Shown here piece by piece: positions 48,210 through 49,689 of a DNA stretch of 64,000 bases (positions within the stretch are counted from its first letter, which is position 1; each line of letters opens with the position of its first letter). The position numbers and the translations under genes were made by a program. The notes beneath the pieces are model-generated. The model worked only from the letters and a program-made list of their open reading frames with translations. It had not been told where the DNA came from and searched no databases. This DNA comes from Escherichia coli (lineage in GTDB: Bacteria > Pseudomonadota > Gammaproteobacteria > Enterobacterales > Enterobacteriaceae): NCBI RefSeq assembly GCF_030013595.1, contig NZ_CP122768.1; one strand, given 5' to 3'.

Positions 48210-49058
48210 ATGGCGACATACCTTATTGGCGACGTTCATGGTTGTTACGATGAACTGATCGCATTGCTGCATAAAGTAGAATTTACCCCTGGGATAGATA
48301 CCCTCTGGCTGACGGGCGATCTGGTCGCGCGCGGCCCCGGTTCGCTGGATGTTTTGCGCTATGTGAAATCCTTAGGCGACAGCGTACGTCTGGTGCTGGG
48401 CAATCACGATCTGCATCTGCTGGCGGTATTTGCCGGGATAAGCCGCAATAAACCGAAAGATCGCCTGACACCGCTGCTGGAAGCGCCGGATGCCGACGAG
48501 CTGCTTAACTGGCTGCGTCGCCAGCCTCTGCTGCAAATCGACGAAGAGAAAAAGCTGGTGATGGCCCACGCAGGGATCACGCCACAGTGGGATCTACAGA
48601 CCGCCAAAGAGTGCGCGCGCGATGTAGAAGCGGTGCTGTCGAGTGACTCCTATCCCTTCTTCCTTGATGCCATGTACGGCGATATGCCAAATAACTGGTC
48701 ACCGGAATTGCGGGGGCTGGGAAGACTGCGGTTTATCACCAACGCCTTTACCCGTATGCGTTTTTGCTTCCCGAACGGGCAACTGGATATGTACAGCAAA
48801 GAATCGCCGGAAGAAGCCCCTGCCCCACTGAAACCGTGGTTTGCGATTCCTGGCCCTGTCGCTGAAGAATACAGCATCGCCTTTGGTCACTGGGCATCGC
48901 TGGAAGGCAAAGGTACGCCGGAAGGTATTTACGCGCTGGATACTGGCTGCTGCTGGGGTGGTACATTAACCTGCCTGCGCTGGGAAGATAAACAGTATTT
49001 TGTCCAGCCGTCGAACCGGCATAAGGATATGGACGAAGGAGAGGCGGTCGCGTCTTAA
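48210..49058 (+). CDS. apaH: bis(5'-nucleosyl)-tetraphosphatase (symmetrical)
   Basis: 282-aa ORF ([23 protein letters not shown]...); stop codon overlaps ccdB stop on opposite strand. Confidence 0.97.
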
Positions 49059-49369
49059 ATCCCGTCGAGCATAAAATCTAATGCCCCTTTAATCAACGTT
49101 CGGTGCGCGCTGGCATCGCAAAATTTCGTTCCCAGCGCGTTAACTGGAACAGTTGCAGTCTCATGCGTCATGAGCACATATTCTTTGCCGTCTACCAGTA
49201 AAAGGATTGTGTTAAGCCGTTCTGGAGGGCGAATACGGATAAATCGTTCAATAGGTGTTAATGGAATAACAATACGGCGATTAATCTCACCAATAATGTC
49301 GCTGGTAACATCGATAACAAAGGGAAACGCGGCGTTCCTGCCGCGACTGCGGTATACCGTAAATTGCAT
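49055..49369 (-). CDS. ccdB: CcdB-family gyrase-poison toxin homolog (104 aa), chromosomal copy
   Basis: [41 protein letters not shown]... aligns with F-plasmid CcdB ([38 protein letters not shown]...); sits directly after ccdA. Confidence 0.88.
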
Positions 49370-49371
49370 CG

Positions 49372-49604
49372 CTAGAAGCTCCGGTACTCATCAGAGAAAC
49401 ATCCGGTTTCATCAGCCAATTGATTTAACGCAGCGATAGCTTCTGCGTTCTCTTCACGCCAACGTGTTGCTGCATGTTTTTTAAGTTCAGCATTGAGCGC
49501 AACCGTAAGGGTGCGCTCATATTTAAGCCTGCATCACGAGCGCGATTGACTAACTCACGGTCGACGGTGACGGTCACACTTTGTGTGGTACGTTTTGCAG
49601 TCAT
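49372..49604 (-). pseudogene. ccdA: CcdA-family antitoxin gene with a 1-nt frameshift: N-terminal RHH part in one frame, C-terminal toxin-binding part in the -1 frame
   Basis: ATG 49604 gives MTAKRTTQSVTVTVDRELVNRARDAGLNMSA then junk to a stop at 49425 (59 aa, below the 60-aa track threshold); other frame encodes LTVALNAELKKHAATRWREENAEAIAALNQLADETGCFSDEYRSF ending 49372; span 233 nt is not a multiple of 3. Confidence 0.8.
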
Positions 49605-49689
49605 GATATCGTGCTCCTGTACAATTTATACGTCTAGTAAACACGGATATCTGCACGTATCAGTGATGCCGGAATTCTAATATACAAAC

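What the first reader, a model, noticed from the sequence alone, without database searches (positions are those of the whole stretch)
49055..49689. Seamless insertion geometry: apaH and ccdB stop codons overlap, with a palindrome-rich putative ccd operator after folA
The apaH stop (49056..49058) and the ccdB stop on the opposite strand (49055..49057) share a TTAA, leaving no room for terminators between the convergent genes. The 85-bp folA-ccdA spacer has an AGGAG ribosome-binding site 8 nt before the ccdA ATG and several GTATAC-like near-palindromic hexamers (gatatc, cgtata, tgtaca), resembling the F-plasmid ccd operator. Read-through from folA into ccdAB looks possible. The ApaH C-terminus (...[12 protein letters not shown]) may differ from K-12 as a result of the insertion.
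Basis: partly seen in the sequence, partly recalled or inferred. Interest (0 to 1): 0.35.

Follow-up and report, generated by a model that had tools for sequence, protein, structure and literature searches.

The report
Known ccd toxin-antitoxin islet, antitoxin broken
This is the already described chromosomal ccd toxin-antitoxin cassette that sits between folA and apaH in about a third of E. coli strains; the geometry is real but ordinary, the antitoxin gene in this copy is frameshifted, and the ApaH tail is the ancestral form, not something the insertion created.

Summary
The coordinates are right. The apaH and ccdB stop codons share TTAA (49055-49058). The folA-ccdA spacer is 85 bp, and AGGAG lies 9 nt (not 8) before the ccdA ATG. 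This is the published ccdO157 islet (Wilbaux 2007; Mine 2009). It is present with the same junctions in 2021-2025 of 5426 complete E. coli genomes and in E. albertii.

There are three corrections.
1. ccdA is a pseudogene here. A 1-bp deletion at codon 32 leaves a 59-aa ORF. The allele recurs in independent assemblies, so it is real.
2. The 282-aa ApaH end (...GEGEAVAS type) is ancestral. ccd-free Enterobacter, Klebsiella and Raoultella have it too. K-12's 280-aa end is the derived one and is perfectly linked to the REP-type spacer.
3. The spacer's palindromes are not enriched beyond local composition (P=0.17), and there is no homology to the F operator.

Some points do favour an operator. Only about 63 bp upstream of ccdA belongs to the cassette. 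Independent relatives share CGTG/CACG repeats and GTATAC/TGTACA hexamers there. The window has CGTGC-N7-CGTGT, unique in 64 kb, next to a -10-like TATAAA.

No terminator separates folA from ccdA, so read-through stays possible. Low interest.

The parts
48210..49058 (+). apaH, 282 aa. It carries the ancestral-type C-terminus plus a lineage-private G275D change (A at 49033).
   Evidence: ORF list. Pfam Metallophos. Annotated apaH in the homologous loci. C-terminus compared across 80 species. The private substitution is shown.
49038..49043 (+). GGAGAG, the 6 bp present in all ccd-type alleles and in outgroup genera and absent from the K-12/REP-type allele. It accounts for the 282 versus 280 aa lengths.
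   Evidence: Alignments. The chimeric-query searches found no recombinant among 5426 genomes. Outgroups.
49055..49058 (.). TTAA shared by the apaH stop (TAA, + strand) and the ccdB stop (TAA, - strand). The left junction of the cassette falls here: sequence shared with ccd-free alleles runs through TCTTAAA, 49053-49059.
   Evidence: The same 4-bp CDS overlap is annotated in RefSeq loci L001 and L002. The same junction occurs in E. albertii.
49055..49369 (-). ccdB, an intact 104-aa ORF. It is identical to WP_001160962.1 and differs from O157 CcdB at positions 10, 28, 44 and 54. I44 and T54 are derived.
   Evidence: Pfam CcdB at 103.8 bits over the full length. Comparisons.
49372..49604 (-). ccdA pseudogene. 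A 1-bp deletion (GGGTGGCG to GGGTGCG on the + strand, at about 49512) shifts the frame at codon 32. The remaining ORF, 49425-49604, encodes 31 native residues plus 28 out-of-frame residues.
   Evidence: The identical 59-aa product P0055 and the 100% identical contig L088 are.
49060..49667 (-). The extent of cassette-specific DNA, that is DNA absent from the ccd-free allele: ccdB, ccdA and about 63 bp upstream of ccdA.
   Evidence: Junction alignments against the K-12-like locus L003.
49614..49618 (-). Shine-Dalgarno AGGAG, 9 nt before the ccdA ATG.
49625..49631 (-). GTATAAA. It contains a -10-like TATAAA (49630-49625) overlapped by GTATAA, which matches GTATAC at 5 of 6 positions. It sits at a similar distance from the start codon as the GTATAC(T) found in relatives L095, L097 and L099. 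This is the inferred promoter core.
   Evidence: Sequence. It did not pass the sigma-70 consensus scan because the -35 matches only 3 of 6 by my reading of the sequence.
49618..49623 (.). TGTACA palindrome between the -10-like element and the SD.
   Evidence: GTATAC/TGTACA are enriched upstream of ccdA homologues (6 observed against 1.13 expected, P=0.00025).
49641..49657 (-). CGTGC-AGATATC-CGTGT: two CGTGY repeats 12 bp apart that flank the GATATC palindrome. This is the candidate CcdA operator core.
   Evidence: It is the only match to CGTGY-N7-CGTGY in the 64-kb window on either strand. The same pattern lies upstream of ccdA in the independent relatives L096 and L101. CGTG/CACG enrichment is shown.
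49668..49689 (-). The folA-proximal 22 bp of the spacer, which is homologous to the ccd-free allele and so is not part of the cassette. It contains GAATTC; GTATAT lies next to it.
   Evidence: GAATTC and GTATAT are not conserved in E. albertii.
49690..50169 (-). folA (DHFR, 159 aa), co-oriented with and directly upstream of ccdA.
   Evidence: Pfam DHFR_1. Annotation of the homologous loci.

Best explanation
The region is the chromosomal ccdO157-type type II toxin-antitoxin islet, a roughly 608-bp cassette (49060-49667) lodged in the convergent apaH/folA intergenic site of Escherichia.

Shown:
- The cassette abuts apaH so closely that the native ccdB stop codon overlaps the apaH stop in TTAA.
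- It takes the place of the REP hairpin that occupies the 77-bp spacer of ccd-free strains.
- No intrinsic terminator lies at either end.
- These junctions are fixed in every ccd-bearing E. coli and in E. albertii.
- In this window ccdA carries a real, lineage-specific 1-bp deletion at codon 32. It removes part of the DNA-binding fold and the whole toxin-binding domain. ccdB remains an intact ORF with its own GGAG.
- The ApaH tail is ancestral and unaffected by the cassette.

Inferred:
- In intact copies the operon is transcribed from a weak promoter inside the 63 bp of cassette DNA upstream of ccdA. Its -10-like element is TATAAA at 49630-49625.
- That promoter is repressed by CcdA-CcdB chains binding short repeats about 12 bp apart: CGTGC-N7-CGTGT, GTATAA and TGTACA.
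- Unterminated folA transcripts add read-through expression.
- This copy is a decaying module, as described for ccdO157. It cannot autoregulate, and its toxin must be non-toxic, poorly expressed or neutralised in trans.

The confidence of 0.8 applies to the identity, geometry, frameshift and ApaH ancestry. For the inferred promoter and operator model alone I would put it at about 0.45.
For: Identity and distribution:
- The window is 97.5-99.8% identical to loci annotated CcdB family protein, CcdA family antitoxin, apaH and folA. 2021 of 5426 genomes cover at least 80% of the query.
- The same 4-bp CDS overlap is annotated in L001 and L002.
- Pfam gives CcdB at 103.8 bits.
- The literature places ccdO157 between folA and apaH, with a 77-bp REP-bearing spacer in K-12 and a decaying system.
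- E. albertii has the same junctions.

Geometry:
- Junctions were mapped.
- The CcdB C-terminus ...DGI* is native in 7 relatives.
- The REP hairpin of the ccd-free spacer folds with z=-2.39. The ccd spacer folds with z=+0.46. No terminator-like site was found.

Frameshift:
- It is visible.
- It is the only 1-bp indel in 20 kb against the nearest genome.
- The identical product P0055 appears in 73 index blocks.
- Contig L088 is 100% identical to the window over 3180 bp, with folA, apaH and ccdB intact.

Operator:
- CGTG/CACG occurs 17 times against 5.1 expected upstream of 8 independent homologues (0 of 5000 dinucleotide shuffles reach it). In the held-out window it occurs 3 times against 0.73 expected (P=0.022).
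- CGTGY-N7-CGTGY is unique in the 64 kb and recurs in L096 and L101.
- GTATAC/TGTACA occur 6 times against 1.13 expected (P=0.00025).
- The 12-bp site spacing matches the F repressor chain.

ApaH:
- Outgroups.
- Perfect linkage, with no recombinant found.
Against: - No sigma-70 consensus promoter was found in the spacer. By my reading the -35 matches only 3 of 6.
- The palindromes in the window alone are not significant.
- There is no homology to the mapped F operator.
- The CGTGY-N7-CGTGY pattern was defined after looking at the sequences. Some relatives (L095 and L099) share a core motif and are not fully independent.
- E. coli and E. albertii spacers are 94% identical, like the flanking genes, so conservation does not discriminate.
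- No transcript or binding data for ccdO157 could be read; the primary papers are not held.
- An intact ccdB beside a dead ccdA is unexplained.
Confidence: 0.8

Rival explanations
1. The spacer has no operator or promoter of its own. The hexamers reflect AT/TA-rich composition, and ccdAB is expressed only as the tail of the folA transcript.
For: - There is no consensus promoter and no terminator between folA and ccdA.
- The spacer RNA is unstructured.
- Palindrome and GTATAC-like counts fall within the shuffle expectation.
- There is no homology to the F operator.
- F CcdA barely discriminates among 6-bp palindromes.
Against: - Independent homologues in unrelated genomic contexts, with no folA upstream, keep CGTG/CACG repeats, GTATAC/TGTACA hexamers and a -10-like element at comparable distances from the ATG.
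- CGTGY-N7-CGTGY is unique in the 64 kb.
- From general knowledge of type II TA operons, they are normally autoregulated from their own promoter.
Confidence: 0.25
2. The ccdA frameshift is a sequencing or assembly error, and the module in this strain is intact.
For: - None of the 5426 complete RefSeq genomes shares the deletion.
- Database 'frameshift' CcdA proteins can be artefacts. The A-run variant P0044 comes from assemblies in which folA and apaH are also fragmented.
Against: - The deletion is not in a long homopolymer (GG to G).
- It is the only 1-bp indel in 20 kb against the nearest genome.
- The exact 59-aa product is recorded in 73 index blocks.
- Contig L088 from an independent assembly is 100% identical over 3180 bp, with all neighbouring genes intact.
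- L089 carries the same frameshift on a different apaH haplotype.
Confidence: 0.07
3. This is the first reader's idea: inserting the cassette remodelled the 3' end of apaH and created the ...GEGEAVAS tail.
For: - Within E. coli the tail type is perfectly linked to the allele. About 2025 ccdB-type genomes all carry the 6 bp and about 2858 REP-type genomes all lack it.
- SNPs cluster in the last 30 bp of apaH.
Against: - ccd-free Enterobacter, Klebsiella, Raoultella, Leclercia, Kosakonia and Pseudescherichia have 282-aa ApaH ending (G/D)EGEA(V/I)AS, with 35-110 bp spacers.
- The indel is separated from the junction by 15 bp of homologous sequence, and the apaH ORF never runs into cassette DNA.
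- A third E. coli allele that lacks ccdB also has the 282-aa protein.
Confidence: 0.03

Closest known systems
ccdO157, the chromosomal ccdAB of E. coli O157:H7 between folA and apaH (Wilbaux et al. 2007, J Bacteriol 189:2712; Mine et al. 2009, Genetics 181:1557; known here only through citing papers PMC7167474, PMC7232551, PMC3184786, PMC2654758 and PMC3879964)
   Same: - Same locus, orientation and junctions.
- 97.7% DNA identity to an O157:H7 genome.
- The repaired CcdA is identical to the O157 protein WP_000125566.1.
- It shows the reported 'decay'.
   Different: - This copy has a frameshifted ccdA with an intact ccdB ORF. The citing literature describes toxin inactivation as the usual first step.
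- CcdB differs from the O157 protein at 4 residues (G10, E28, I44, T54).
F-plasmid ccdAB and its 113-bp promoter/operator (Tam and Kline 1989; Madl 2006; Vandervelde et al. 2017, PMC5389731)
   Same: - Same two-gene architecture: the antitoxin comes first, with a gap of a few nucleotides at most (2 nt here).
- Both proteins hit the same Pfam families.
- There are short repeated sites about 12 bp apart near the promoter and a GTATAC-like hexamer at the -10.
   Different: - CcdB is only 33-35% identical to the F protein.
- There is no detectable DNA homology upstream.
- At most about 63 bp of cassette DNA is available, against 113 bp with eight sites in F.
- The recurring element is CGTG(Y), not only GTATAC.
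- Nothing here has been tested experimentally.
REP-bearing folA-apaH spacer of E. coli K-12 (77 bp)
   Same: It is the allelic alternative at the same site. It shares TCTTAAA on the left and about 22 bp next to folA on the right.
   Different: - It carries a stable REP hairpin (z=-2.39) that could end or stabilise both convergent transcripts. The ccd allele has no such structure.
- It is linked to a derived 280-aa ApaH.

Membership tests
CcdB toxin family (Pfam PF01845) | Full-length match to the family profile above the curated cut-off | tested here: met
   103.8 bits against a cut-off of 28.6; residues 2-103 match profile positions 1-101 of 101.
CcdB toxin family (Pfam PF01845) | Poisoning of DNA gyrase (GyrA) and toxicity that CcdA relieves | not testable with these tools
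   The residue equivalent to F CcdB W99 is Asp, as in all ccdO157-type proteins. The effect of the derived I44 and T54 is unknown.
CcdA antitoxin family (Pfam PF07362) | An intact protein with an N-terminal DNA-binding domain and a C-terminal CcdB-binding domain | tested here: not met
   The window ORF is 59 aa and only residues 8-33 match profile positions 2-27 of 71 (22.5 bits). The sequence with the missing base restored matches full length at 93.1 bits.
Type II toxin-antitoxin operon, ccd type | Antitoxin gene immediately upstream of the toxin gene on the same strand, closely spaced | tested here: met
   The in-frame ccdA stop lies 2 nt before the ccdB ATG. Seven relatives have the same layout.
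Type II toxin-antitoxin operon, ccd type | Autorepression by antitoxin or toxin-antitoxin complex binding to an operator that overlaps the promoter | tested here: inconclusive
   Shared CGTG/CACG and GTATAC/TGTACA motifs lie upstream of the homologues. No consensus promoter was found and there are no binding data. In this window the repressor gene is broken.
ccdO157 islet at folA-apaH | Located between folA and apaH with high identity to the O157:H7 cassette | tested here: met
   (97.7% identity to O157:H7 strain Z887, same gene order). Literature.
F-plasmid-type ccd operator | Roughly 113-bp region with eight imperfect GTATAC-like palindromes about 12 bp apart, including a perfect central GTATAC | tested here: not met
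   - There is no perfect GTATAC.
- Only about 63 bp of cassette DNA is available.
- Local alignment to the F-type upstream region is no better than shuffles (P=0.69).
- Only the 12-bp spacing of two CGTGY repeats resembles it.
Intrinsic terminator between convergent or tandem genes | GC-rich hairpin followed by a run of T | tested here: not met
   None was found at the apaH/ccdB junction or in the folA-ccdA spacer. Spacer fold z=+0.46.

The most novel reading that the evidence does not exclude
In this lineage the antitoxin decayed first, while an intact ccdB that can be translated independently persists. This could be tolerated for either of two reasons. The terminator-less convergent apaH transcript may run antisense through ccdB and silence it. 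Alternatively, the S44I/P54T CcdB allele may be attenuated. Either way it would be a natural case of a type II toxin kept without its cognate antitoxin.
Probability: 0.1. Interest if true: 0.45.

Novelty: already known. Interest (0 to 1): 0.15.

Why it matters
The finding matters little in itself. The folA-apaH ccd islet, its absence from K-12 and its decay across E. coli were published in 2007-2009. The 4-bp stop overlap is already visible in RefSeq annotation.

The check does add four small things.
- It corrects the direction of a tempting inference: the ApaH tail is ancestral, and K-12 is the derived state.
- It shows that the antitoxin in this copy is dead.
- It narrows any cassette-borne promoter and operator to about 63 bp.
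- It proposes a testable motif for the so far unmapped ccdO157 operator: CGTGY repeats 12 bp apart plus a GTATAC-like hexamer at the -10.

It also shows that the apaH-folA gap is a recurrent landing site for small cargo across Enterobacteriaceae.

Tried and rejected
- Primary papers (PMC2666520, PMC1855815, PMC5585702) are not held. Their content is known here only through citing papers.
- The sigma-70 and terminator scan found nothing in the spacer.
- Rfam at E<=1 gave only a spurious miRNA hit outside the region.
- Local alignment of the spacer to an F-type ccd upstream region showed no homology.
- I first took the abundant 59-aa CcdA variant P0044 (A-run frameshift, 478 contigs) as evidence that the antitoxin is often lost first. 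I rejected this because the contigs examined also have fragmented folA and apaH, which points to homopolymer errors in long-read assemblies.
- I considered a second ccdA copy in the window that could supply antitoxin in trans. None was found. The rest of the genome cannot be seen.
- I considered programmed frameshifting to restore CcdA. There is no slippery heptamer at the site, and I did not pursue it.
- E. coli versus E. albertii conservation of the spacer (94%) is no higher than that of the flanking genes, so it is not informative.
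Full report
**1. What is in the sequence**

apaH (48210-49058, + strand, 282 aa) and an ORF on the opposite strand (49055-49369, 104 aa) end in the same four bases, TTAA, at 49055-49058. The minus-strand ORF is a full-length CcdB (Pfam PF01845, 103.8 bits).

folA (49690-50169, - strand) lies upstream on the same strand. The ccdA start codon is at 49604-49602, which leaves an 85-bp spacer (49605-49689). AGGAG sits at 49618-49614 and is followed by 9 nt, not 8, before the ATG.

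One thing was missed. The ccdA reading frame closes after 59 codons (49425-49604).

**2. Identity and distribution**

A 901-bp query across the region matches every complete E. coli genome through its apaH and folA parts. Only 2021 of 5426 genomes cover at least 80% of it. In those the features are annotated as apaH, CcdB family protein, CcdA family antitoxin and folA.

In the nearest genome (HCP5S3_I2) and in an O157:H7 genome, the apaH and ccdB CDS overlap by the same 4 bp. K-12-like genomes have a 77-bp spacer instead.

The literature that could be read describes exactly this. It reports that:
- the ccdO157 system lies between folA and apaH;
- K-12 and HS have a 77-bp spacer without it;
- the interval is plastic and often carries a REP sequence;
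- the system is degenerating within the species.

These points come from PMC7232551, PMC7167474, PMC3184786, PMC2654758 and PMC3879964. The primary papers (Wilbaux 2007; Mine 2009) are not held.

**3. Junctions**

I aligned the window, two ccd+ genomes and a ccd-free genome.
- On the left, sequence shared with the ccd-free allele runs through TCTTAAA (49053-49059).
- On the right, shared sequence resumes at about 49668 (GCCG...), 22 bp from the folA stop.
- The cassette-specific DNA is therefore about 49060-49667. Only about 63 bp upstream of ccdA came in with the cassette.

CcdB proteins of seven relatives in other genomic contexts all end at the same residue (...DGI*...DGF* or ...DGV*). The ccdB stop is therefore native, and the overlap reflects a flush joint at TTAA.

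The ccd-free spacer folds into a strong REP hairpin (z=-2.39). The ccd spacer folds no better than shuffled sequence (z=+0.46). The consensus scan finds no terminator-like site in the spacer or at the apaH/ccdB joint. Neither has been tested at the RNA level.

**4. The ApaH C-terminus**

- ccd-type alleles encode a 282-aa ApaH: ...HKDLGEGEAVAS in O157 and ...[12 protein letters not shown] here.
- REP-type alleles encode 280 aa (...HKDLGEAAAS), because they lack a 6-bp GGAGAG at 49038-49043 and carry two nearby substitutions.

I tested the linkage with two chimeric queries.
- An insertion-type apaH end fused to the REP spacer has no match better than 94.2% identity, with a 131-bp span for a 137-bp query. 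2858 genomes cover at least 80% of this query.
- A deletion-type end fused to ccdB has no match better than 94.4% identity, with a 143-bp span. 2025 genomes cover at least 80%.

No recombinant exists among the 5426 genomes.

The causal reading is nonetheless wrong. I fetched the apaH locus from 80 species representatives and analysed them. ccd-free Enterobacter, Klebsiella, Raoultella, Leclercia, Kosakonia, Phytobacter and Pseudescherichia all have 282-aa ApaH ending (G/D)EGEA(V/I)AS, with 35-110 bp between apaH and folA. The tail seen with ccd is the ancestral one. The K-12 tail is a derived 6-bp deletion that travels with the REP-type spacer.

Two further points agree with this. The indel is separated from the junction by 15 bp of homologous sequence, so the apaH ORF never reads into cassette DNA. 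A third E. coli allele that lacks ccdB also has the 282-aa protein.

**5. The broken antitoxin**

Relative to all ccd+ genomes, the window lacks one G in GGGTGGCG at about 49512. This shifts ccdA at codon 32. The product keeps 31 native residues and gains 28 foreign ones, and the native C-terminal half is readable in another frame.

No complete RefSeq genome shares the deletion. It is still not an error, for four reasons.
- Over 20 kb the window differs from its nearest genome by 11 substitutions, one 15-bp indel and this single 1-bp indel.
- The exact 59-aa product (P0055) is recorded in 73 index blocks.
- Contig NJZI01000010.1 of GCA_002460785.1 is 100% identical to window 47925-51104, with folA, ccdB and apaH intact.
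- Another contig (L089) has the same frameshift on a different apaH haplotype, plus a 13-bp deletion in ccdB.

By contrast, the commoner A-run 'frameshift' CcdA (P0044) comes from assemblies in which folA and apaH are also fragmented. I treat it as homopolymer error.

ccdB here is intact and identical to an allele that coexists with intact ccdA elsewhere. It has its own GGAG 9 nt upstream of the ATG (read directly from the sequence). Two of its residues, I44 and T54, are derived relative to O157, the E. coli representative and E. albertii; in F CcdB the position aligned with 54 is also Pro.

How the lineage tolerates this arrangement is not explained. The window holds no second ccdA.

The E. 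albertii type strain carries the cassette at the same junction, but with a 3' frameshift in ccdA and no ccdB start codon. That is another instance of decay.

**6. Is the spacer an operator?**

Evidence against, from the window alone:
- There are four perfect 6-bp palindromes against 2.15 in dinucleotide shuffles (P=0.17).
- There are three 5-of-6 GTATAC matches against 1.28 expected (P=0.11).
- No sigma-70 consensus promoter was found.
- There is no homology to an F-type ccd upstream region (P=0.69).
- GAATTC and GTATAT lie in or next to the folA-proximal segment shared with ccd-free alleles, and both are altered in E. albertii.
- The F operator is 113 bp with eight sites about 12 bp apart. 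F CcdA binds single sites weakly and hardly discriminates among the 64 palindromic hexamers (PMC5389731). Hexamer resemblance is therefore weak evidence.

Evidence for, from comparison. I collected upstream regions of eight further CcdA homologues: seven 66-78% identical, plus a more distant one on a Citrobacter plasmid. They lie in unrelated contexts, and no pair of upstream regions is more than 60% identical.
- The most recurrent 4-mer is CACG/CGTG. In the eight relatives it occurs 17 times in the last 75 bp against 5.1 in dinucleotide shuffles (none of 5000 shuffles reach it).
- In the held-out window it occurs 3 times against 0.73 expected (P=0.022). Only 1.2% of 75-bp windows in the 64 kb have 3 or more.
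- Two of the window's copies form CGTGC-AGATATC-CGTGT (49657-49641). This is the only match to CGTGY-N7-CGTGY on either strand of the 64 kb. The same pattern lies upstream of ccdA in L096 and L101. The pattern was defined after inspecting the sequences.
- In L095, L097 and L099, GTATAC overlaps a TATACT -10-like element. At a similar distance from the start codon the window has GTATAAA (49631-49625).

My reading, which is an inference, is as follows.
- There is a weak promoter whose -10 is TATAAA.
- CGTGY repeats 12 bp apart cover the -35 region.
- GTATAA lies on the -10 and TGTACA near the start site.
- This layout would let a CcdA-CcdB chain occlude RNA polymerase, as in F.
- folA read-through would add to expression.

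In this window the repressor gene is broken, so the circuit cannot operate with the strain's own protein.

**7. Verdict**

The overlap geometry is a fixed, annotated property of the ccdO157 islet.
- The operator idea is partly supported by comparative motifs, but not by resemblance to F.
- The ApaH idea is refuted in its causal form.

Interest is low.

Noticed in passing
L004 (NZ_CP075061.1) 2660-4084; about 540 of the 5426 E. coli genomes have neither the ccdB-type nor the REP-type junction: A third allele of the apaH-folA interval. It has a 282-aa ApaH, then a DUF4291 gene, a 155-aa ORF with no Pfam hit, and a 45-aa remnant of a different, divergent ccdA next to folA. The interval has therefore hosted more than one ccd lineage.
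   Followed up: partly
L028, L033, L074 and L075 at 3850 to about 4650; L036 3850-6134: In Superficieibacter, Pseudocitrobacter and Phytobacter the same apaH-folA gap holds a roughly 210-aa PRiA4_ORF3-family gene (Pfam 168 bits). In S. electus it also holds a DUF4291 gene. The gap is a recurrent landing site for small cargo across Enterobacteriaceae.
   Followed up: partly
L007 (E. albertii NBRC 107761) 3849-4395: The ccd cassette sits at the identical junction but is decayed. ccdA is frameshifted near its 3' end, and ccdB has lost its ATG (...AIPFTVYRS...).
   Followed up: partly
window 49328-49345 (- strand): A 6-bp all-GC hairpin, CGCGGCAGGAACGCCGCG, followed by TTTCCCTTTG lies inside the 5' end of ccdB and was flagged as terminator-like. 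The O157 sequence differs at two stem positions, so it is probably a chance feature of this lineage.
   Followed up: no
window 49174-49186: A 13-bp deletion in ccdB occurs in contig L089, on the same ccdA-frameshift background. Complete genome WP8-S17-ESBL-08 has a match 13 bp shorter over 48900-49800 while its ccdA region is full length. This may be the same toxin-inactivating deletion.
   Followed up: partly
window 40296-40310: A 15-bp tandem duplication (GGTAGCACCGTCCAC) relative to the nearest genome. It maps inside the gene annotated espY1 (T3SS effector) in that genome.
   Followed up: no
P0044; loci L102-L107: The most abundant 'truncated CcdA' in the protein database (59 aa, A-run frameshift, 478 contigs) comes from assemblies where folA and apaH are also split. 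It is therefore largely a homopolymer sequencing artefact and not a biological allele.
   Followed up: yes
L097 1114-1151; L099 1128-1130: Other members of this ccd subfamily are also packed tail-to-tail against a convergent gene, with a 38-bp overlap in L097 and a 1-nt gap in L099. A flush 3' end is not peculiar to the E. coli site.
   Followed up: no
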